Shown: positions 14,743 to 25,062 of the stretch, piece after piece
How the letters are laid out: every line of letters starts with the position of its first letter
Position numbering within the stretch: position 1 is the first letter of the stretch
Assembly: GCA_020161405.1 (NCBI GenBank)
Contig: JAIUOD010000003.1
Span: forward strand, 217,392-281,391
Direction of reading: 5' to 3'
Length of the DNA stretch: 64,000 nt
DNA from: Pseudomonadota bacterium
GTDB taxonomy: Bacteria; Pseudomonadota; Alphaproteobacteria; Caulobacterales; Aquidulcibacteraceae
Position numbers and translations under genes: made by a program
Notes under the pieces: model-generated
The model's input: the letters and a program-made list of their open reading frames with translations, nothing else
The model's database searches: none
What the model was told of the DNA's origin: nothing

Positions 14743-16224
14743 CTATTTAAGCGCAGCAATTTCATTCGAAAGTCGATACTGTCTTAATGTAATTGAGCGC
14801 CAGTCGCCAGTGTTAAGCGCAAGTTCTTCCTTAAATTTGGTGGCAATTTCATTAAGTGAAGTTTTCAATTCCAATTCATTTGGATTATTTGAAATTTGCG
14901 ATATTGCCCACAAAGTGGCCGGTAATGCTTCAACACCGATGCTTGATAAATAATTAGTATCCAATTTATAATTACTTTTCGAAATTTCTTGGCAATGTTT
15001 CACATTATGCCATGAAATTATGCTTCCGAAATTTATAAAATTACAAATCAAAATTGTTGCGACCAATGAGCAGAAATTTGTATTTATCAGCCATAAATTA
15101 TCTTTATTAAATTGTATTTTGACGATGATTAAAAATAGCCCAAATGCAACAAGTCCCATCCAAATCAAAGCCGCAACCCTTAAATATGTTAGAGAGTAAG
15201 CATCAATATAATTTAAAGTGCGCAAAATGGATGATGTAACAAGAAATATGTTTTGTACGATCCAAAAATAAACCAGATATTTTGATTTATTATTCCCTTG
15301 TGAATTTTTCAAACCGAATAAGACAAACCACGCGGCAAGAAAAGTTGTGAAGATTAAAGGATATGCACCCCTATGTGCATATTGTGCATGCGTAAGGCCA
15401 TCAGGAAGCGGGTTGCCGCTCCATAGAAAAGTTAAATCTAATAAATTTTGTATTGCAAAAATTGCATTGAACAAAAGAAGTGAAATGAACACCGATTGTG
15501 GGTTAAAAATATAATTATAGAATGAGTTATTCTGTTCATTTTTTTCTTCAACTTTGATGGTTGAAAGAATTTTTAATTTGATTTGTGGACGAATAAAATA
15601 CCATATTGCCGATAATGTGAATGCGGTGAAAATAATTCTTTCAATTGATATAGCTTTAAAAATTACGCTTAAGTCAATCTTATCTAATGCATTTTCTAGA
15701 ATTGGGTTTGCATTATAAAACATTGCAATAAAAACAATTCCAAAAAATACTGGTGCTATTGATAATTGGATAATTTTTCCAAAACCAAATTTCTTATTTG
15801 TATTGTTATTAGAAATTTTTAAAATTCGTTTTGTGTCGATTATTATTCGTGTCCAAAACGACAAAGCCTGACCAAGGAAAATTACTATAATTTTCGGTAG
15901 AGCAATGTTTTTACGTATTTTCGGCATTAAAACTAAGGAAAAGCTTAGAAACATAAAAAAAGCAAATTGAAATAAGTTTGGTGCTTCAACCATAGATGCA
16001 GCGCTAATCAAGCATGAAAGTGCCAATAATCGGGCATTTGATAAACTGTGCAATTTAGGTTGAAAATACCAAATTGAACCAAGTAATAAGATACTAAAAA
16101 GCCCAATTGTGGAACCAATTGGGCTATTAAAAAATAGAAAATTTGCAATCGTTACTAGTAATAATGAAACTAAGATTTTTATATCTGTTCTATTATTAAA
16201 TTTAATAATTCTAGTATTTGACAT
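14743..16224 (-). CDS. DUF4173/DUF4153-family multi-pass membrane protein
   Basis: FYNANP, LDLTFLW...GLTHAQYAHRGAYPL, YIDAYSLTYLR; many TM segments. Start at 16224 follows AAAGG. Confidence 0.8.
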   Translation of the reverse strand: MSNTRIIKFNNRTDIKILVSLLLVTIANFLFFNSPIGSTIGLFSILLLGSIWYFQPKLHSLSNARLLALSCLISAASMVEAPNLFQFAFFMFLSFSLVLMPKIRKNIALPKIIVIFLGQALSFWTRIIIDTKRILKISNNNTNKKFGFGKIIQLSIAPVFFGIVFIAMFYNANPILENALDKIDLSVIFKAISIERIIFTAFTLSAIWYFIRPQIKLKILSTIKVEEKNEQNNSFYNYIFNPQSVFISLLLFNAIFAIQNLLDLTFLWSGNPLPDGLTHAQYAHRGAYPLIFTTFLAAWFVLFGLKNSQGNNKSKYLVYFWIVQNIFLVTSSILRTLNYIDAYSLTYLRVAALIWMGLVAFGLFLIIVKIQFNKDNLWLINTNFCSLVATILICNFINFGSIISWHNVKHCQEISKSNYKLDTNYLSSIGVEALPATLWAISQISNNPNELELKTSLNEIATKFKEELALNTGDWRSITLRQYRLSNEIAALK

Positions 16225-16402
16225 GATTTTACCTTTCATACTTTGTGTGAAATGTAAACATGTTCAAAAATGGGCGCAAAATTGGCTATACTTTGGTAAT
16301 ATTATGATTAACTCGTACTGGTCATTTTTCTTTTAGTTGACATGTTTTGTTGTTATTTATGCTCAAACAAGCGAATGGTGATTCGTAAATAAGGAATATA
16401 TT

Positions 16403-16759
16403 ATGACTGATGCCCCAAATTTTTACTCCCAAGAAGATATTGAATTGATTAATGAAATCGCTTCTGATGGTTCGGATATGTCGCAGCCAATGATTATTGA
16501 AATCGATATTGCGGTAAAAGATGAAGAAACAGCCCAAAAGATTTGTGATAAATTAGAAGCCGCAGAATATGATTTTGACATGTTCCAAGATGAAGAAACT
16601 GATGAGCTTGGAATTTGTGTTAATGTATCAATGCTTTTGACAGCGCAAAATGTTGGCGATGCACAAACTAAACTTCAAGAAATCGCATCTGAATTTGGCG
16701 GTGAAGTTGCAGGTTGGGGAACATTCGGCAATAATTATGACGAATTACCAGAAGACTAA
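16403..16759 (+). CDS. RraB-like (RNase E inhibitor family) acidic protein
   Basis: DGSDMSQPMIIE...FGGEVAGWGTF fits the RraB/DUF695 pattern; AAGGA RBS. Confidence 0.65.
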   Translation: MTDAPNFYSQEDIELINEIASDGSDMSQPMIIEIDIAVKDEETAQKICDKLEAAEYDFDMFQDEETDELGICVNVSMLLTAQNVGDAQTKLQEIASEFGGEVAGWGTFGNNYDELPED

Positions 16760-17217: not shown

Positions 17218-17442
17218 TTATACCAATTCTCTTTGCATAATAACCAAAAAAGCCTCGCGTGAGAAAAATAATAACATACGGCGAGATTCTTTTTCCATTG
17301 ATTTAACTTCCCAGCCTTCTGCTCCATTTCTATTTAAAAAATCAGTAAATTTAACAGGGTCAACTTTTGATCCCCCTAAAAATAATGAGCCAATCATGCT
17401 TTCACGGTAAATTACTACTTTATATTCATATTTTTTTGCCAT
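17218..17442 (-). CDS. DUF4177 domain protein
   Basis: YEYKV...LNRNGAEGWE...QRE; GAGG RBS. Confidence 0.8.
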   Translation of the reverse strand: MAKKYEYKVVIYRESMIGSLFLGGSKVDPVKFTDFLNRNGAEGWEVKSMEKESRRMLLFFSREAFLVIMQRELV

Positions 17443-18977: not shown

Positions 18978-19023
18978 TTTATAAACAATATGCATTTAAA
19001 GCTCTTAATATATGGAGTTTAAA

Positions 19024-20178
19024 ATGCATATTACTAACAGGCGCAGCTTTAATGTTAATTCAATTGCCTTGCTATCAAGCCTTTTAGCAAGCCCTGTTTT
19101 TGCAAAAGATGTTCAATTAAGCGATGCATTACTTAAAGATATCGACAATGGAATTATGGATGCCATTACAAATGGCGCAAGCCCAAGTGTTCAAATAAGC
19201 ATTTTTAAACAGGGCCTACCAATTTACAAAAAAGCAATTGGATTTTCAAATTTAGAAAATAAAATTTCGCTTAAGCAAAATGATGTATTTCGTACAGGCT
19301 CATTAACCAAGCAATTTACCGCAGCAGCGATATTATTATTGGCGCAAAAAAAGAAATTAGATTTATCAGATAATGCGTCAAAACATCTTCCTGAATTTTC
19401 GAAACATGCGCCCTTTAGCATTTCAGAACTTTTATGGCACACAGCAGGAATTCATAGTGATGAAACTGATACTTCTATCCTTGGCAAACCAAGAAGCCAT
19501 ATTGTACTTGCAAAAGAAATAGCCACACAAAAGCAAGTCTTTGATTTTTCATCTGGTACGTCATGGCTGTATAGCAATGCAAATTATATAATTTTAGGTG
19601 CTATTATCGAAAAAATCATGGGCGTATCTTATGATAAAGCGATTAATATGCTTATAATTAAGCCGCTTAAGTTAAATAATACTTATGTTGAAAACGGGCA
19701 TAGTAAAAACAAAAATCTTGTAAATGGCTATACGCCATTAGAGGCAGAAACCCCAAGATTTGAAAAAGCGCAAGCAATTGAATATGCAGAAGCGGGCGCG
19801 GCGGGCGCATTAATTTCGAACACTGATGATTTGTGTAAGTGGCATCATGCATTATTTTTTGGCAATTTTTTAAACAATGAAAGCCGCAATAAAATGGTAA
19901 AAGCTGGTCTTTTGCGTGATAGTCGAATAAGTGGTGCAAATAGGTTTTCAGAACAAGATGCAAATTATGGCGATGTTCAATATGGAATGGGTTTGCTTAT
20001 TGATAAAAATTCCAATCCAGAAGAATTGATTTTCCATTATGGTTTTATAAGTGGGTTTTCTTCTTATTTAGCAAGTTTTGTAAAATCAAAGATAACAATT
20101 GCAATATTATGCAATGCAGATAATAATCCCGCTATGCCATTTAGGGCGGTTAGAAAAGCCATTTCAAAATCGCTTTAA
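19024..20178 (+). CDS. Serine hydrolase, beta-lactamase/PBP class C-like superfamily
   Basis: SLTK (SxxK), YSN, HYG motifs; N-terminal signal peptide. Start at 19024 follows GGAG. Confidence 0.88.
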   Translation: MHITNRRSFNVNSIALLSSLLASPVFAKDVQLSDALLKDIDNGIMDAITNGASPSVQISIFKQGLPIYKKAIGFSNLENKISLKQNDVFRTGSLTKQFTAAAILLLAQKKKLDLSDNASKHLPEFSKHAPFSISELLWHTAGIHSDETDTSILGKPRSHIVLAKEIATQKQVFDFSSGTSWLYSNANYIILGAIIEKIMGVSYDKAINMLIIKPLKLNNTYVENGHSKNKNLVNGYTPLEAETPRFEKAQAIEYAEAGAAGALISNTDDLCKWHHALFFGNFLNNESRNKMVKAGLLRDSRISGANRFSEQDANYGDVQYGMGLLIDKNSNPEELIFHYGFISGFSSYLASFVKSKITIAILCNADNNPAMPFRAVRKAISKSL

Positions 20179-20210: not shown

Positions 20211-20564
20211 ATGGCGTCAAATATCTTGGTTTTATTGGTTGCGCTTCTTCATTTATATTTCCTTATTCTCGAAATGTTTCTTTGGGATAAGCCAAAGGGC
20301 ATGAAAACCTTCGGCACAACACAAGAATATGCAAACGCAAGTAAAGCATTGGCAGCAAATCAAGGTCTTTATAATGGATTTTTAAGTGCGGGTTTGATTT
20401 GGGGATTGCTGGCAAAAAATAATAGCCATGATATAAAGATTTTCTTTTTATCATGTGTGATTGTTGCTGGCCTTTATGGCGCGAAAACCGTGAATAAAAG
20501 AATATTTTTTGTTCAAGCGCTTCCTGCAATAATTGCAATATTACTTTTGCTTTTAAAACTATAG
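20211..20564 (+). CDS. DUF1304 membrane protein
   Basis: LHLYFLILEMFLW, ANQGLYNGFL, QALPA. Confidence 0.9.
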   Translation: MASNILVLLVALLHLYFLILEMFLWDKPKGMKTFGTTQEYANASKALAANQGLYNGFLSAGLIWGLLAKNNSHDIKIFFLSCVIVAGLYGAKTVNKRIFFVQALPAIIAILLLLLKL

Positions 20565-20571
20565 GTGGCAA

Positions 20572-21411
20572 ATGGCGCAAGATTTTGATAAATTAAAAGT
20601 TAAAAGTGGCAAAGAAATTAAACTCTCAAATATTGATACCGAGGCAAAAGAATTCAAATTATCAAAAGAAGAAGCCGCGCCTATTTTAGAAAAAAATATT
20701 GAAAAATTAAAAGAGCTACAAGAAAAATTATATGCCGAGCATAAACAATCTATTTTAGTGGTTCTTCAAGCGATTGATGGCGGTGGTAAAGATGGAACAA
20801 TTGAACATGTCTTTGGCCCGTTAAATTCTGCGGGTTGCCGTGTTGCATCATTTAAAGTTCCAACACCAATAGAAGCTGACCATGATTTCCTTTGGCGCGT
20901 GCATGCGCAAACACCTGCAAAGGGCGAGATTGTTGTTTTTAACCGCAGCCATTATGAACAAGTTTTGGTGGTTCGCGTCCATGATTTAGAGACGAAAGAA
21001 ATTAATAAAACCCGATATGATCAAATCAATGATTTCGAAAAATTATTGGCGTCAAATAATACCCACATCCTTAAATTCTTTTTGCACATTTCAAAAGATA
21101 CGCAATTACAGCGCTTTAAAGACCGTATCGATGACCCTCTAAAACATTGGAAAGTTGCCGCTGGTGACTTTAAAGAGCGCGCGCTATGGGATGATTATAT
21201 GGCAGCATTCGAAGATATGGTGAATAAATGTTCGAAAGAAAATGCGCCCTGGTTTGTTATACCCGCTGATAAAAAATGGTTCCGCGATTTGGCGATTTCG
21301 CAGATTCTTGTTGACTATATGGAGGGGATGAATATTCAATTGCCACAGACAGATGAAGATATAGAAGCCATAAAAAAACTATATGAAGCCGAGTGTAAAG
21401 TTTTATCTTGA
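20572..21411 (+). CDS. ppk2: Polyphosphate kinase 2 family, class III-like
   Basis: LQAIDGGGKDGTI, SFKVP..E..HDFLWR, FNRSHYE, ADKKWFR. Confidence 0.92.
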   Translation: MAQDFDKLKVKSGKEIKLSNIDTEAKEFKLSKEEAAPILEKNIEKLKELQEKLYAEHKQSILVVLQAIDGGGKDGTIEHVFGPLNSAGCRVASFKVPTPIEADHDFLWRVHAQTPAKGEIVVFNRSHYEQVLVVRVHDLETKEINKTRYDQINDFEKLLASNNTHILKFFLHISKDTQLQRFKDRIDDPLKHWKVAAGDFKERALWDDYMAAFEDMVNKCSKENAPWFVIPADKKWFRDLAISQILVDYMEGMNIQLPQTDEDIEAIKKLYEAECKVLS

Positions 21412-21529
21412 ATACAGTAATTAACTTAGTTTAATTTCTTGTATTTTTCAAAATTTTAGTTTGTAGAAATATCAAAATTATGTATATTTGATATTCGCAA
21501 CTATAATTTAATTAATATGTTTGAAAAAA

Positions 21530-23320
21530 ATGAGAAATATCCTTACTTCGCATTGGGATGATAATGCAAAATTAAGTCTTTTAAAATTTTTTGTAGAAAT
21601 AATGAGTGAGTTAACTTTTGACTATACTTTAATTTATTTCAAACCAAGCACATCAACAATATTTACTTTAGCTAATGAATGTAAAGCGGCTATTTTATTA
21701 TCAAGAAACCGGGAAGATAAAAAAAAATCTGCGTTACATCTTCTGAAGGAGCTTAGATTAAAAATATCAAAAAGCTCAGTTTTTAGCTACGTAAGTAAAA
21801 TTGAAAAATCAAATTACTTAGACGGGTTAAATTCTGTAGATAGTGATGACACTCTTAGCATGCTTAACATTCTGCTGGTGGAATTTTCACCTTTTAAAAC
21901 AATTGAAATCTGTATTCTGGTTTTAAAAAATCTTTTGTTAGATGTTACATGTAAAGAAAAGAAATTAATCTATAATTTGACATGTGAGTTAGTTTCTATG
22001 TTGTTAAGTTATGGGATGGGAAAGGCACACATTTATAAACAAATTGACAGAATTTTCAAATCACCAAAATTTGCCGTAACAATACCTAATTCATTAGATG
22101 AATTCTTTAAAGAGATTTTGCCGCTACAACATAATTTCACAATATGCTTTAGGCTAAAAACTCCCATAACTGAGAACATAGAAGAATCAAGAGAAAAACT
22201 TAGCGTTAAATTATATGATACTTTTCCCTCAGATGAATTTATAGGAGTAAATAATTATGCATTAGAAAAAAAGTCAGACGATTTACCAATGTATGCTTTG
22301 GTAGAAGATGTAAAAGCATTTGACCCCATTTCAGCGCTAAAAGAGGCGAGGAAAAAAGTAAAATTATTGCATGATGTATTTAAATTATTTCATCATAAAT
22401 CAGATTATGTGATTTCTGAAGATGCTCTAATAAAACAGTGCTGTAAAAAAGGCTCGGTTTTGATTAGACTTGATACCAAGTCTTCAAAAAACATTGCTGA
22501 TACTAGGCCAAAATTTGCTGCTAACAATTGCAGTTCGGTGCTTTCAGGTTCTCATTTGGCAGTTGGTAAAGATAAGCTTAAGTTTTTTTCAGCATTGGAA
22601 TTTCATGGGATAAGCACAAGATCTGAAGTAATTGAGAGTCAAATAACCGGTCTATGGACCGCGCTGGAATCATTTAGTCCAAAAAATATAACAGCTACTA
22701 ATATTAGCAATGTTTCAAAATGTGTGGTTCCAGTTATTGTTCTTAGTCACGTTGAAGCGATAATAAGAAATTTATATAAGGATCTAAAGTTATGGAATTC
22801 AAAAATTCTAAACTCAGCGCTTAAAAAGTTTGAAGGTCTTGATAGAGTTACTAAAAATCAAGCATTAATTAGGCTTTTAGTCGATAGTGAAGCTGGAGGT
22901 TCTCTTCAAAATTTATTAGCTGCATTAGATGGAAATGATTTATTAAGGTTTCGACTTTTTGAAATTAGTAAAATGTTTTTATCGCCAAAGAAACTAGTAT
23001 CGTTCTTAAGGGAAATAGAAGAAGCTACTAACAATGAGTTGAGACGTATTTACAGGGCGCGTAATGATTTAATTCATTCTGGATTTCATCCAATTAATAT
23101 TGAAAGTATTTATGAGATAAGCCATTACTATTTCGATGAAGTTTTCAATTTTTGTATAGAAATGTCATTTGACGGTTTTAGTCGTTTCGATGATATTTTT
23201 AAATTTGCAGAAATTCATTGTGTCGAAATGTTAAAGCAATTGTCAAATGCTGAAAGTTTTGAAAGCTATGGATATTCTAGACTTTTGTGGAAAGAGGATA
23301 TGGATTTGGATGTGTTGTGA
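21530..23320 (+). CDS. Hypothetical ~597 aa protein with a C-terminal HEPN-type R-x4-H motif
   Basis: Intact long ORF; LWTALES and ELRRIYRARNDLIHSG (RNDLIH at 23060-23077); about 27% GC in two 60-nt lines counted. Confidence 0.7.
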   Translation: MRNILTSHWDDNAKLSLLKFFVEIMSELTFDYTLIYFKPSTSTIFTLANECKAAILLSRNREDKKKSALHLLKELRLKISKSSVFSYVSKIEKSNYLDGLNSVDSDDTLSMLNILLVEFSPFKTIEICILVLKNLLLDVTCKEKKLIYNLTCELVSMLLSYGMGKAHIYKQIDRIFKSPKFAVTIPNSLDEFFKEILPLQHNFTICFRLKTPITENIEESREKLSVKLYDTFPSDEFIGVNNYALEKKSDDLPMYALVEDVKAFDPISALKEARKKVKLLHDVFKLFHHKSDYVISEDALIKQCCKKGSVLIRLDTKSSKNIADTRPKFAANNCSSVLSGSHLAVGKDKLKFFSALEFHGISTRSEVIESQITGLWTALESFSPKNITATNISNVSKCVVPVIVLSHVEAIIRNLYKDLKLWNSKILNSALKKFEGLDRVTKNQALIRLLVDSEAGGSLQNLLAALDGNDLLRFRLFEISKMFLSPKKLVSFLREIEEATNNELRRIYRARNDLIHSGFHPINIESIYEISHYYFDEVFNFCIEMSFDGFSRFDDIFKFAEIHCVEMLKQLSNAESFESYGYSRLLWKEDMDLDVL

Positions 23321-23362
23321 ATTCCTCTTGCCCAAATCGTTGCAAAAAGCTAACGCAAAGGA

Positions 23363-24301
23363 ATGTTTATTATTCAGTTTCCGGGTCAAGGCTCCCAGTC
23401 GGTGGGAATGGGCGCTTCCCTTGCGCAAGAATTTGAAGTTGCAAAACGTGTTTTTCAAGAAGTTGATGATGCTTTGGGTCAAAATCTTTCAGGCTTGATG
23501 TTTGAAGGGCCAATCGAAACCCTAACGCTTACTGAAAATGCACAACCCGCAATTATGGCGGCTTCTATTGCATTATTGAGAGTTTTTGAAGCCGAATTTG
23601 GCTTTGATTTATCAAAAGCAGAATTTGTGGCTGGTCATTCACTTGGTGAATATAGCGCATTAACGGCAGCAGGTGCTTTCAAACTTGCTGATGCCGCAAA
23701 ATTGCTTAAATTACGTGGTCAGGCAATGCAGCGCGCGACACCTGCGGGCATTGGTGCTATGGCTTCATTAATTGGACCAAAAACCGATTTGGCACTTGCG
23801 CAGGCCGCGGCCGATGAAGGTTCGAAAATTGGCGTTTGTACTGTTGCCAATGACAATAATGCCGGAAACATTGTTATTTCAGGTGAGGCGGCGGCGGTCG
23901 CAAAAGCCATAGAAAAAGCGAAAGAATTGGGCGCACGCGCAATTCCGTTAAATGTTTCTGCACCATTCCATTGCCCACTTATGGCACCTGCGGCTGAAGA
24001 AATGAAGGCTGCGTTGGAAAATGTTGAAATTCAAAATCCAATTGTAAAACTTGTACCAAATGTTTCACTTGAACCAACCCAAGATGCACAATTAATAAAA
24101 AAACTTCTTGTAGAGCAGGTGACTGGCCGTGTTCGTTGGCGCGAAACCATTGAATTCTTCGGTGCGCAAAAAATTGATACTTTCCTTGAAATTGGTGCAG
24201 GATCAGTTTTAACAGGAATGTCAAAACGTACTGCGCCAGAAGCAAAACATTTTGCGCTTTCAAGTGTTGAAGAATTCAAAAAATATCAAGAAACAATTTA
24301 A
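23363..24301 (+). CDS. fabD: Malonyl-CoA:ACP transacylase
   Basis: FPGQGSQ, GHSLGEY, LNVSAPFH. Confidence 0.98.
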   Translation: MFIIQFPGQGSQSVGMGASLAQEFEVAKRVFQEVDDALGQNLSGLMFEGPIETLTLTENAQPAIMAASIALLRVFEAEFGFDLSKAEFVAGHSLGEYSALTAAGAFKLADAAKLLKLRGQAMQRATPAGIGAMASLIGPKTDLALAQAAADEGSKIGVCTVANDNNAGNIVISGEAAAVAKAIEKAKELGARAIPLNVSAPFHCPLMAPAAEEMKAALENVEIQNPIVKLVPNVSLEPTQDAQLIKKLLVEQVTGRVRWRETIEFFGAQKIDTFLEIGAGSVLTGMSKRTAPEAKHFALSSVEEFKKYQETI

Positions 24302-24327
24302 TATTATAATTTAACGGAGTGTCCGTA

Positions 24328-25062
24328 ATGTTTGATTTAACTGGTAAAAAAGCACTTATAACTGGCGCAACTGGCGGCCTTGGAAGTCAGATTGCAAAAT
24401 CGCTTGCTGCGCAAGGCGCAATAGTTGCAATTTCAGGCACACGTGAAAATATTTTAAGCGAATTATCTAAAGAAATTCCAAATTCAATTGTTTTGACGGC
24501 AAACCTTTCAGAGGATGGCGCAGCTGAAAACCTTATTGCACGTGCCGAAGAGGCTTTGGGCGGTTTAGATATTCTTGTTGCAAATGCAGGTGTTACACGC
24601 GATGGCCTTTTGATGCGTATGAAAGAAGAAGATTTCGATACTGTTCTAAAAGTCAATCTTTATTCGTATTTTGCAATGGCAAAAGCGGCAATGCGCGGCA
24701 TGATGAAGCGTAAACATGGTCGAATCATTGGTATTTCATCCGTTGTCGGTGTTACTGGTAATGCAGGGCAGGCAAATTATGCGGCATCAAAAGCAGGTAT
24801 GATTGGTTTTACCAAATCACTAGCCCAAGAAGTTGCAACACGTGGGATTACCGCAAATTGTATTGCCCCTGGCTTTATTGTTTCGCCTATGACTGATGTT
24901 TTAAATGATGCCCAAAAACAAGGTATTTTGTCTTCAATTCCAGCTGGAAGAATGGGGCAGGCAGAAGAAATTGCGGCAGGTGTTGTTTATCTTTCTTCAG
25001 ATGAGGCGGCATATGTTACGGGTCAAACCTTGCATATTAATGGCGGCATGGCTATGATTTAA
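24328..25062 (+). CDS. fabG: 3-oxoacyl-ACP reductase
   Basis: TGATGGLG, NAGVTRD, YAASK, NGGMAMI. Confidence 0.98.
   Translation: MFDLTGKKALITGATGGLGSQIAKSLAAQGAIVAISGTRENILSELSKEIPNSIVLTANLSEDGAAENLIARAEEALGGLDILVANAGVTRDGLLMRMKEEDFDTVLKVNLYSYFAMAKAAMRGMMKRKHGRIIGISSVVGVTGNAGQANYAASKAGMIGFTKSLAQEVATRGITANCIAPGFIVSPMTDVLNDAQKQGILSSIPAGRMGQAEEIAAGVVYLSSDEAAYVTGQTLHINGGMAMI

What the first reader, a model, noticed from the sequence alone, without database searches (positions are those of the whole stretch)
21530..23320. Stand-alone AT-rich ~600 aa HEPN-motif gene: candidate anti-phage ribonuclease
Seen: an intact ORF at about 27% GC in sampled lines (fabD line sampled: 53%), rich in TTA/ATA/AGA codons, placed between the ppk2 stop and the fabD promoter. 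The C-terminal helical region has QITGLWTALES and ELRRIYRARNDLIHSG, an R-N-x3-H motif. The N-terminal ~350 aa match nothing I recognise. Known: R-x4-6-H is the HEPN RNase signature, and large single-gene HEPN proteins such as ApeA and AbiF/AbiD types act in abortive infection. Inference: a one-gene defence system with an uncharacterised sensor domain. No antitoxin, nucleotidyltransferase or reverse transcriptase is adjacent, so it would need to be auto-inhibited.
Basis: partly seen in the sequence, partly recalled or inferred. Interest (0 to 1): 0.72.

Follow-up and report, generated by a model that had tools for sequence, protein, structure and literature searches.

The report
Divergent ApeA anti-phage RNase gene
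The AT-rich gene between ppk2 and fabD is a horizontally acquired, divergent member of ApeA, a known single-protein anti-phage RNase; its cutting site is intact but its signal-sensing pocket is rebuilt, so it is a known kind of system that probably has a different trigger.

Summary
An intact 596-aa ORF (21530-23320, +) has 30.7% GC in a 39.4% GC genome, which puts it in the lowest 0.5% of same-size windows. It carries QITGLWTALES and ELRRIYRARNDLIHSG.

It is not a new system. The whole protein, not only the C-terminus, matches the cryo-EM ApeA proteins: Ec3ApeA at E=3e-37 and Ec2ApeA at E=3e-33. A profile of its HEPN part also reaches Ec4ApeA and the original Ec1ApeA. Pfam and PADLOC miss it because their models are narrow.

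R511-N512-x3-H516 aligns with catalytic R502/H507 of Ec2ApeA and is invariant in 94 homologs.

The gene is a 1.9-kb single-gene insertion. A same-genus genome has ppk2 and fabD about 47 bp apart, another has a ParDE module at that site, and 0 of 40 relatives carry the gene.

The sensor pocket is unusual. Only 3 of 15 Ec2ApeA ligand-contact positions match the family consensus. All three basic residues are lost, and net charge is -3 against +2. The deep-pocket residues E27, T33, E74, R475 and Y534 remain.

Most likely it is a functional ApeA-type RNase, by homology a tRNA anticodon nuclease, that responds to a ligand other than 5'-phosphorylated deoxydinucleotides. It is a new member of a known kind and of moderate interest.

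The parts
20572..21411 (+). ppk2 (polyphosphate kinase 2), the left flank of the insertion. It is a native gene.
   Evidence: Pfam PPK2 at E=3e-72. In same-genus genome G008 it lies directly upstream of fabD.
21412..21529 (+). AT-rich (about 23% GC) 5' leader that arrived with the insert. No consensus sigma-70 promoter or terminator was found in it.
   Evidence: Sequence, composition, promoter and terminator scan. It has no counterpart in the empty site of L005.
21530..23320 (+). apeA-like gene, 596 aa. An alternative TTG start lies at 21521.
   Evidence: phmmer against PDB chains gives Ec3ApeA 3.2e-37 (query 9-545) and Ec2ApeA 3e-33 (query 8-547). 1004 homolog clusters were found. The identical protein sits at the same locus on 16 public contigs.
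21530..22123 (+). N-terminal all-helical domain (about residues 1-198). It forms one wall of the sensor pocket and contains E27, T33, Y36, F37, S40-S42, E74, Y148 and C152.
   Evidence: AF2 model with pLDDT 93 and helices 12-196. Aligned to the Ec2ApeA N-domain 1-198.
22124..22468 (+). Mid alpha/beta domain (about residues 199-313).
   Evidence: AF2 strands 201-210, 226-229, 254-263, 294-303 and 309-313. This corresponds to the Ec2ApeA Mid domain 199-309.
22508..23284 (+). HEPN_ApeA domain (about residues 327-585), a split helical HEPN with insertions.
   Evidence: A profile of this part (A4) hits Ec3ApeA 6e-84, Ec2ApeA 4e-82, Ec4ApeA 1.5e-25 and Ec1ApeA 1.1e-16. The AF2 model is all-helical with pLDDT 93.
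22640..22672 (+). QITGLWTALES (residues 371-381), a conserved HEPN helix. Q371 and W376 are nearly invariant and E380 is invariant.
23045..23083 (+). HEPN catalytic motif R506-I-Y-R-A-R511-N512-D-L-I-H516-S-G518. R511 corresponds to Ec2ApeA R502 and Ec1ApeA R521, both of which are catalytic.
   Evidence: R506, Y508, R509, R511, N512 and H516 are invariant in 94/94 sequences. The R502A and R521A mutants abolish defence.
23321..23362 (+). Retained native ppk2-fabD spacer, which carries fabD's translation start region. It marks the right edge of the insertion.
   Evidence: The window reads 'cctcttgccc..gctaacgcaaagga-ATG' and L005 reads 'ccccttgccc..gctaacgaaaaatc-ATG'.
23363..24301 (+). fabD, the right flank. 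It is the first gene of the native fabD-fabG-acpP-fabF-mltG-gmk cluster.
   Evidence: Pfam Acyl_transf_1 is recorded for it.

Best explanation
The gene encodes a divergent but complete member of the ApeA family, a single-protein, ligand-gated HEPN ribonuclease used for anti-phage defence.

By homology, the expected mechanism is as follows. Two HEPN domains dimerise to build a composite R511/H516 active site, and the dimers probably stack into a ring. [quoted passage not shown] It then cuts RNA. In the studied homologs the targets are host tRNA anticodon loops or, for RNA phages, the phage genome. Cutting stops translation and phage multiplication.

What is shown here:
- family membership
- an intact catalytic motif
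- the three-domain layout
- arrival as a 1.9-kb low-GC single-gene insertion into a variable ppk2-fabD site of a Caulobacterales bacterium from activated sludge.

What is inferred:
- the protein is active in defence
- because its pocket lining has lost every basic residue and is net negative, its trigger is not the 5'-phosphorylated deoxydinucleotide that activates Ec2ApeA but another, still unknown molecule.

My odds: ApeA family about 0.97; functional anti-phage RNase about 0.7; different activator, given that it is functional, about 0.7.
For: Homology. There is a full-length match to the solved ApeA proteins. The HEPN-part profile links it to Ec1-Ec4ApeA. Sister proteins hit PADLOC's ApeA model.

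Catalytic site. RNxxxH is aligned to Ec2 R502/N503/H507 and is invariant in 94/94 sequences. The query keeps 35 of 42 columns that are at least 85% conserved.

Structure. The AF2 model (pLDDT 93.2, pTM 0.93) has the helical N domain, alpha/beta Mid domain and helical HEPN domain at the boundaries reported for Ec2ApeA.

Family mechanism from the literature. bioRxiv 10.64898/2026.01.26.701840 reports tRNA anticodon cleavage, decameric rings and pdNG activation. bioRxiv 10.64898/2026.03.20.713152 reports that the pocket senses RNA phage and that the phage genome is cleaved.

Acquisition:
- GC is in the lowest 0.47% of genome windows.
- 0 of 40 relatives carry a homolog.
- G008 has the empty site.
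- G002 has ParD/ParE at the same site.

Maintenance. The ORF is intact (chance 6e-24), and the identical gene is at the same locus on 16 contigs from several samples. The sister protein P0009 is only about 34-36% identical yet intact, and it shares I496/E503. The rebuilt pocket has therefore persisted through long divergence.

Pocket:
- 3 of 15 contact positions match the consensus, the second lowest of 94.
- 0 K/R at these positions, seen in only 2 of 94 sequences.
- Net charge is -3, against +2 in Ec2ApeA.
- Deep-pocket E27, T33, E74, R475 and Y534 are retained.
- Ec1ApeA, a strong defender, also departs from consensus at the positions of Ec2 H487 and R490 and does not respond to dinucleotides.

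Expression. There is weak evidence only: fragmentary contigs in an activated-sludge metatranscriptome cover the gene at a depth like that of ppk2.
Against: There is no experimental datum for this protein.

Five pocket positions where single Ec2ApeA mutations abolish defence are all substituted here, two with the very same residue:
- Y37F in Ec2ApeA corresponds to F37 here (same residue)
- R490A corresponds to A499 here (same residue)
- Y401F corresponds to H407 here
- H487A corresponds to I496 here
- Q494Y corresponds to E503 here
This could mean a dead sensor.

Foldseek could not confirm a HEPN or ApeA fold. Its PDB copy lacks the 9HX* entries and gave no hit below E=0.07.

No sequence variation exists among the public copies, so selection could not be measured.

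The gene sits in a housekeeping region, not a defence island.

The pocket mapping rests on sequence alignment, not on superposed structures.

The metatranscriptome signal may be contaminating DNA.
Confidence: 0.8

Rival explanations
1. Sensor-dead relic. This is an ApeA homolog whose ligand pocket has decayed. It can no longer be activated and is a recently acquired, effectively neutral passenger that has not yet accumulated stop codons.
For: All five pocket positions shown by mutagenesis to be essential in Ec2ApeA are changed, two to the same residue as the inactivating mutant. The three phosphate-binding arginines are lost. The branch is long. Selection could not be measured.
Against: 596 codons remain open at 31% GC. 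All catalytic residues and the deep-pocket residues E27, T33, E74, R475 and Y534 are kept. The sister P0009, at about 34-36% identity, shares I496/E503 and is also intact, so this pocket type outlived long divergence. A similar pocket (H401, I/F487, D/E494) arose independently in a second clade; the AU test rejects one origin at p=6e-5. Functional Ec1ApeA also departs from consensus at the positions of Ec2 H487 and R490.
Confidence: 0.12
2. Non-abortive RNA-phage defence. Like Ec1ApeA against Qubevirus phages, the pocket would recognise a structure in a phage RNA, and the HEPN site would cut the phage genome directly without killing the cell.
For: This mode has been shown for Ec1ApeA and Ps2ApeA. 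The residues implicated there are E28 and R485 in Ec1ApeA, and their counterparts E27 and R475 are conserved here. Activated sludge is rich in ssRNA phages (my own knowledge, not tested here).
Against: That pocket is described as positively charged, which suits RNA binding. Here the lining is net -3 with no K/R among the 15 mapped positions. Nothing in the sequence distinguishes between possible targets.
Confidence: 0.1
3. Not defence. The protein is a selfish or stress-linked toxin RNase that stabilises the locus or regulates growth, with no role against phages.
For: The same intergenic site holds a ParDE addiction module in a sister species. There is no defence island around the gene. Overexpressed ApeA is toxic in E. 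coli.
Against: There is no antitoxin partner. Every tested active member of the family acts against phages. Some homolog loci sit beside retrons, type I-F Cas/TniQ, AriA and integrases.
Confidence: 0.05

Closest known systems
Ec2ApeA and Ec3ApeA (E. coli; PDB 9HXB/9HXD/9HXI and 9HXJ; bioRxiv 10.64898/2026.01.26.701840)
   Same: Both are single proteins of about 590 aa that align over the full length (E=3e-33 and 3e-37, about 25% identity). [quoted passage not shown] The RRIYR(T/A)RNxxxH(S/T)G motif is identical, with R511 corresponding to R502. Pocket residues E74 and Y525 (here E74 and Y534) are conserved.
   Different: 12 of 15 dinucleotide-contact residues differ from Ec2ApeA. R148, R152 and R490 become Y, C and A. 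H487 becomes I, Q494 becomes E, Y401 becomes H and H521 becomes I. Pocket charge is -3 against +2. Residues of the regulatory loop and ring interface are not conserved, but these vary across the family. The host is a Caulobacterales bacterium and the gene is very AT-rich.
Ec1ApeA (E. coli NCTC8008, the original ApeA of Gao et al. 2020 as cited in the two preprints; PDB 9HXN)
   Same: It belongs to the same family; the profile of the HEPN part matches it at E=1.1e-16. Its pocket also departs from the Ec2 type and it is not activated by deoxydinucleotides. The conserved pocket residues E28 and R485 correspond to E27 and R475 here.
   Different: It is much more distant in sequence. PADLOC's ApeA model appears to be Ec1-centred and does not detect the window protein. 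Ec1ApeA's pocket is described as positively charged.
Alphaproteobacterial ApeA clade (P0010-P0030; for example the loci in Hwanghaeella grinnelliae, Leisingera, Maritimibacter and Thalassobaculum)
   Same: These are the nearest relatives, at 27-31% identity. The query falls in a well-supported clade with them: 27 rows in the full tree and 14 rows in the subset tree, each with support 100.
   Different: Nearly all keep the canonical pocket core YEYH(R/K)QNY. The query has FEHIAEIY and its only close sister, P0009, has YEYIREAY.
HepT (minimal HEPN toxin of HepT/MntA) and other HEPN RNases (Csm6, PrrC, AbiD/AbiF)
   Same: They share the Rx4-6H catalytic motif on a helix and activity as a dimer. 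HepT is reported as the closest structural match of the ApeA HEPN domain.
   Different: The window gene has no antitoxin or nucleotidyltransferase partner. The protein is much larger, with N-terminal and Mid domains and HEPN insertions. There is no Pfam hit of any kind, so none to a HEPN or Abi family. Foldseek found no HEPN structure.

Membership tests
ApeA (single-protein HEPN anti-phage system) | Full-length sequence homology to experimentally characterised ApeA proteins, covering the N-terminal, Mid and HEPN regions | tested here: met
   phmmer gives Ec3ApeA 3.2e-37 (query 9-545), Ec2ApeA 3e-33 (query 8-547) and Ec4ApeA 1.5e-6. The profile of the HEPN part gives Ec3 6e-84, Ec2 4e-82, Ec4 1.5e-25 and Ec1 1.1e-16.
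ApeA (single-protein HEPN anti-phage system) | Stand-alone gene of about 600 aa with no partner gene | tested here: met
   The protein is 596 aa and its neighbours are ppk2 and fabD. The same arrangement is seen on 16 public contigs.
ApeA (single-protein HEPN anti-phage system) | Catalytic HEPN motif R-N-x3-H at the position of Ec2ApeA R502/H507 | tested here: met
   R511, N512 and H516 are aligned to it and are invariant in 94/94 homologs.
ApeA (single-protein HEPN anti-phage system) | Three-domain layout: helical N domain, alpha/beta Mid domain, split helical HEPN domain | tested here: met
   The AF2 model (pLDDT 93.2) has helices 12-196, strands 201-313 and helices 327-585, against Ec2ApeA 1-198 / 199-309 / 335-583. 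This compares predicted secondary structure only, not superposed structures.
ApeA (single-protein HEPN anti-phage system) | Conserved ligand pocket between the N-terminal and HEPN domains | tested here: inconclusive
   Deep-pocket residues E27, T33, E74, R475 and Y534 are kept. Only 3 of 15 Ec2 contact positions match the family consensus. Pocket geometry could not be checked without coordinates.
Ec2ApeA-type (pdNG deoxydinucleotide-activated) ApeA | Phosphate- and base-contacting residues R148, R152, R490, Q494, H487, Y401 and Y37 | tested here: not met
   They are replaced by Y148, C152, A499, E503, I496, H407 and F37. Single mutants at five of these positions abolish Ec2ApeA function.
ApeA (single-protein HEPN anti-phage system) | Decameric or dodecameric doughnut assembly | not testable with these tools
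   No multimer prediction is available. Interface residues are poorly conserved across the family.
ApeA (single-protein HEPN anti-phage system) | tRNA anticodon or phage RNA cleavage, and phage protection that depends on the HEPN arginine | not testable with these tools
   Requires experiment.
ApeA (single-protein HEPN anti-phage system) | Hit to the curated PADLOC ApeA model PDLC02157 | tested here: not met
   There is no hit at E<=10. Homologs P0010, P0044, P0089 and P0120 (which is Ec2ApeA) score only 1e-8 to 1e-12, so the model is narrow. This failure reflects the model, not the protein.
HEPN superfamily | Rx4-6H motif on a helix of a four-helix core | tested here: met
   The motif lies within predicted helix 486-517. 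The HEPN fold follows from homology to the solved ApeA structures.
HEPN superfamily | Structural match of the predicted model to a solved HEPN domain | tested here: inconclusive
   Foldseek against PDB gave no hit with E<0.001, best 0.07 for the full-length model and 0.31 for the HEPN-only model. That library ends on 2026-04-08 and returned no 9HX* ApeA entry.
AbiD/AbiF (Abi_2) and other Pfam HEPN/Abi families | Match to the Pfam family model | tested here: not met
   Pfam-A returned 0 families at E<=10.

The most novel reading that the evidence does not exclude
The window protein and its sister P0009 may represent a second sensor type within ApeA. Their pocket has lost every basic, phosphate-binding residue, has become net negative, and carries H407, I496 and E503 in place of the near-invariant Y, H and Q. 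A similar combination (H401, I/F487, D/E494) arose independently in another ApeA clade. That would point to a recurrent alternative infection signal that is not a phosphorylated nucleotide, for example a nucleoside, a base or a cationic metabolite, and one still unknown for any ApeA.
Probability: 0.35. Interest if true: 0.55.

Novelty: new member of a known kind. Interest (0 to 1): 0.33.

Why it matters
The case shows that current defence-annotation models (PADLOC 2.0, Pfam, NCBIfam) miss a whole alphaproteobacterial branch of ApeA. A direct comparison with the 2026 ApeA structures places it at once. For annotation, the practical lesson is that 'no PADLOC hit' is not evidence of novelty.

Biologically, the protein is a natural experiment on ApeA's sensor. 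The catalytic core and pocket floor are kept while the ligand-contact walls are replaced and the charge is inverted. If the protein is active, finding its ligand would widen the set of small molecules known to signal phage infection, and would help explain why ApeA homologs protect against different phages.

The ppk2-fabD site, which is empty in one species, holds ParDE in another and holds ApeA here, is a small example of a single-gene conflict-module hotspot inside a core operon region.

Tried and rejected
1. Pfam, NCBIfam and PADLOC scans of the protein gave no usable hit. The only result was a chance PspA match at E=0.07.

2. Foldseek of the full-length AF2 model against PDB gave only generic helical proteins, best E=0.07. 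The library copy predates or lacks the 9HX* entries.

3. A second AF2 model of the HEPN part alone (pLDDT 93.2) also found no HEPN structure by Foldseek. I treat both fold searches as uninformative, not as evidence against a HEPN fold.

4. dN/dS from population variants was not possible. All public copies are nucleotide-identical apart from one extra Lys codon in a Lys run.

5. I searched for mobile-element marks around the insert. There are no convincing flanking direct or inverted repeats, no tRNA gene and no integrase or transposase in the window. The 5-bp 'TGAAT' at both edges is too short to mean anything.

6. The search for related loci with the single protein found nothing, and with the 94-row alignment it failed. 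A 13-row alignment worked.

7. I tallied 130 neighbours of 13 homolog loci. Some are defence genes (retron RT with ATPase-Toprim, type I-F Cas/TniQ, AriA, mad3) and four are integrases, but most are housekeeping genes. I ran no control set, so I claim no enrichment.

8. Three runs labelled as metatranscriptomes (X1-X3) gave 16-21 kb uniform contigs, which probably means DNA is present, so I did not use them as evidence of expression.
Full report
**1. The observation**

The window has one long ORF at 21521 (TTG) or 21530 (ATG) to 23320 on the + strand, 599 or 596 aa. Public gene calls use the ATG.

The gene is 30.7% GC, against 37-46% for its neighbours and 39.4% for the 2.98-Mb genome. Only 0.47% of same-size genome windows are as AT-rich. 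TTA, ATA and AGA codons are 2.3 to 5 times as frequent as in seven neighbouring genes. At this composition an open frame of 596 codons has a chance of about 6e-24, so this is a real gene.

The 27% GC holds only for the 5' end, and fabD is 43% GC, not 53%. These do not change the point.

**2. What it is**

Pfam, NCBIfam and PADLOC give nothing. A plain phmmer search against PDB chain sequences gives full-length matches to the recently solved ApeA anti-phage proteins:

| Protein | PDB entry | E-value | Query residues |
|---|---|---|---|
| Ec3ApeA | 9HXJ | 3.2e-37 | 9-545 |
| Ec2ApeA | 9HXD/9HXI | 3e-33 | 8-547 |
| Ec4ApeA | 9HXM | 1.5e-6 | 147-534 |

The alignment runs from residue 8, so the 'unrecognisable' N-terminal 350 aa are the ApeA N-terminal and Mid domains.

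A profile built from the HEPN part of the window protein and 59 genomic homologs hits Ec3ApeA (6e-84), Ec2ApeA (4e-82), Ec4ApeA (1.5e-25) and the original Ec1ApeA (1.1e-16).

An exhaustive search of 1.8 billion cluster representatives finds 1004 homolog clusters, the best at 36% identity. One of them, P0120, matches the Ec2ApeA residues shown (tested on residues 8-100, 100% identical) and was used as the Ec2ApeA numbering reference.

Sister proteins score only 1e-8 to 1e-12 on PADLOC's ApeA model, and the window protein not at all. The missing PADLOC hit therefore reflects a narrow model, not novelty.

**3. Anatomy**

In a 94-sequence alignment, the invariant columns are R506, Y508, R509, R511, N512 and H516, together with E74, H289, H359 and E380. 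R511 aligns with Ec2ApeA R502 and Ec1ApeA R521, whose alanine mutants abolish defence.

AlphaFold2 with this alignment gives a confident model (pLDDT 93.2, pTM 0.93). It has a helical N domain (12-196), an alpha/beta Mid domain (201-313) and a helical HEPN domain (327-585). These are the boundaries reported for Ec2ApeA: 1-198, 199-309 and 335-583.

Foldseek could not add to this. Its PDB copy returned no 9HX* entry, and it found only generic helical proteins for both the full model and a HEPN-only model.

**4. How the family works (literature)**

ApeA is a single-gene system.

- Juozapaitis et al. (bioRxiv 10.64898/2026.01.26.701840) show abortive infection through cleavage of host tRNA anticodon loops. 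They describe doughnut-shaped decamers or dodecamers with the HEPN sites facing a tRNA-sized channel. [quoted passage not shown] In Ec2ApeA this pocket binds 5'-phosphorylated deoxydinucleotides (pdNG), thought to arise when phages degrade host DNA. Ec1ApeA has a different pocket and an unknown ligand.
- Drobysheva et al. (bioRxiv 10.64898/2026.03.20.713152) show that Ec1ApeA and Ps2ApeA also stop ssRNA phages. They cut the phage genome without killing the cell, and the same pocket (E28, R485) senses infection.

**5. What is unusual here: the pocket**

I mapped the 15 Ec2ApeA ligand-contact positions through the alignment.

| Ec2ApeA residue | Residue here | Family conservation (of 94) |
|---|---|---|
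| S40 | S40 (kept) | |
| E74 | E74 (kept) | E in 94 |
| Y525 | Y534 (kept) | |
| T36 | Y36 | |
| Y37 | F37 | |
| R148 | Y148 | |
| R152 | C152 | |
| Y401 | H407 | Y in 89 |
| Y469 | E478 | |
| H487 | I496 | H in 85 |
| R490 | A499 | R/K in 80 |
| Q494 | E503 | Q in 76 |
| H521 (family N) | I530 | N in 74 |

The two remaining contact positions are made through the main chain in Ec2ApeA; I41 and M42 are T41 and S42 here.

Only 3 of the 15 positions match the family consensus, the second lowest of 94 sequences; most members match 8-13. The window protein is one of only two sequences with no Lys or Arg at these positions. Its net charge there is -3, against +2 in Ec2ApeA.

In Ec2ApeA the single mutants Y37F, Y401F, H487A, R490A and Q494Y each abolish ligand binding and defence. 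All five positions are changed here, two to the very residue used in the mutant.

The pocket floor is kept, however. E27 (Ec1 E28), T33 (Ec1 T34), E74, R475 (Ec1 R485) and Y534 are all present. Overall the protein keeps 35 of the 42 columns that are at least 85% conserved.

**6. Is the rebuilt pocket decay or a new specificity?**

On a family tree the window protein pairs with P0009 (about 34-36% identity). The pair has support 100 and sits inside a clade with support 100 (27 rows in the full tree, 14 in the subset tree). The other members of that clade nearly all have the canonical pocket core YEYH(R/K)QNY.

P0009 is intact and shares I496 and E503. Those changes therefore predate a long divergence during which both proteins kept the catalytic site.

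A second group (P0083, P0111, P0139, P0146), in the other half of the tree, shows a similar pattern: H at 401 in P0139, I or F at 487 in three of the four, and D at 494 in all four. With the pocket columns masked, the AU test rejects a single origin of the two groups (delta lnL 138, p=6e-5; the group was chosen after seeing the tree).

Ec1ApeA, a strong defender, also departs from consensus at the positions of Ec2 H487 and R490.

Together this favours a changed specificity over a dead sensor, but it does not prove it. The public copies of the gene are nucleotide-identical apart from one extra Lys codon, so selection cannot be measured.

**7. Genomic setting**

The window is core chromosome. 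It carries rpsF-rpsR-rplI, dnaB, radA, the fab cluster, lptD/F/G, purMN, ppk1/ppx, aspS and accBC. It has no integrase, no tRNA gene and no other obvious defence gene by inspection of the gene list (no PADLOC or Pfam scan of the whole window was run).

The organism is a member of the Caulobacterales. Its fabG is 81% identical to that of an uncultured Caulobacteraceae MAG and 73% to those of Aquidulcibacter and Hyphomonadaceae UKL13-1. It is found in wastewater and activated-sludge samples.

None of 40 related genomes, including 8 of the same genus, has a homolog. Same-genus genome G008 has pepU32-DUF1304-ppk2-fabD, with about 47 bp between the ppk2 stop and the fabD start. That native spacer ('ccyctTGCCC...gctaacg') is still present right after the apeA stop codon. 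The insert is therefore window ~21412-23320: the gene plus a 118-bp, 23% GC leader, with no flanking repeats.

Same-genus genome G002 carries a small secreted protein and a ParD/ParE toxin-antitoxin pair at the same site. The site is thus a small hotspot for single-gene conflict modules.

Among the 13 closest homolog loci in other genomes (mostly marine or freshwater Alpha-, Beta- and Gammaproteobacteria), some sit beside retrons, type I-F Cas/TniQ, AriA or integrases. Many sit among housekeeping genes, as this one does.

The identical gene lies at the same locus on 16 contigs from several samples.

No terminator is predicted between ppk2, apeA and fabD. In one activated-sludge metatranscriptome, short contigs cover the gene and both junctions at a depth like that of ppk2. 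This is weak evidence of transcription, because DNA carry-over cannot be excluded.

**8. Verdict**

It is a member of ApeA itself, a system known since 2020 and mechanistically dissected in 2026, so it is not a new defence system.

What remains of interest is that this lineage is missed by current annotation models and that it has a charge-inverted, rebuilt sensor pocket. That makes it a reasonable candidate for an ApeA with a new activator.

Earlier notes of this scan record many similar AT-rich ApeA-like genes in other genomes, some also with altered pockets. They agree with this reading but are not independent evidence.

Noticed in passing
window 19012-20178: A serine-hydrolase gene of the beta-lactamase family (388 aa, 34% GC, with a signal peptide) lies between pepU32 and DUF1304. 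Same-genus genome G008 has only about 117 bp there (L005 132-249). This looks like a second single-gene insertion 1.3 kb upstream of the apeA insert.
   Followed up: partly
L006 2603-3769 (same-genus genome G002): The ppk2-fabD site that holds apeA in the window holds three genes here: a 165-aa secreted protein, a ParD-like antitoxin (121 aa) and a ParE toxin (94 aa, Pfam 1.3e-14). The site is a small hotspot for conflict genes.
   Followed up: yes
window ~21716-21730 (codons 63-67, DKKKS): One JGI metagenome contig (L170, protein P0157) carries one extra Lys codon in this Lys/A-rich run. It is otherwise 100% identical over 8.5 kb. This is an in-frame homopolymer-type length polymorphism.
   Followed up: partly
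proteins P0083, P0111, P0139, P0146 (ApeA homologs from the representative library): A second, phylogenetically separate ApeA clade has a similarly rebuilt pocket: I/F at Ec2 position 487 in three of the four and D at 494 in all four. The AU test rejects a common origin with the window's lineage (p=6e-5).
   Followed up: partly
L002, L003, L004 (same-genus genomes G007, G001, G005), upstream of fabD: The gene order upstream of fabD differs between species of the genus. It is a pdhC-like E2 gene in G007 and two lipoprotein genes in G001 and G005. The fab cluster's 5' boundary is therefore a recurrent synteny break.
   Followed up: no
window 14743-16239 (- strand): A 498-aa DUF4153 membrane protein gene has only 30% GC, as AT-rich as apeA. 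It lies next to the rpsF-rpsR-rplI operon and may be another foreign gene.
   Followed up: no
runs X1-X3 laid on window 20400-24500: Three runs labelled as metatranscriptomic give 16-21 kb contigs of uniform depth across this locus. This suggests substantial DNA in these libraries or mislabelling. They should not be used as evidence of expression.
   Followed up: no
window 16403-16759 and 17218-17442: An RraB-like (regulator of ribonuclease activity B) gene and a DUF4177 gene lie in the low-GC stretch upstream of pepU32. They have no evident link to apeA.
   Followed up: no
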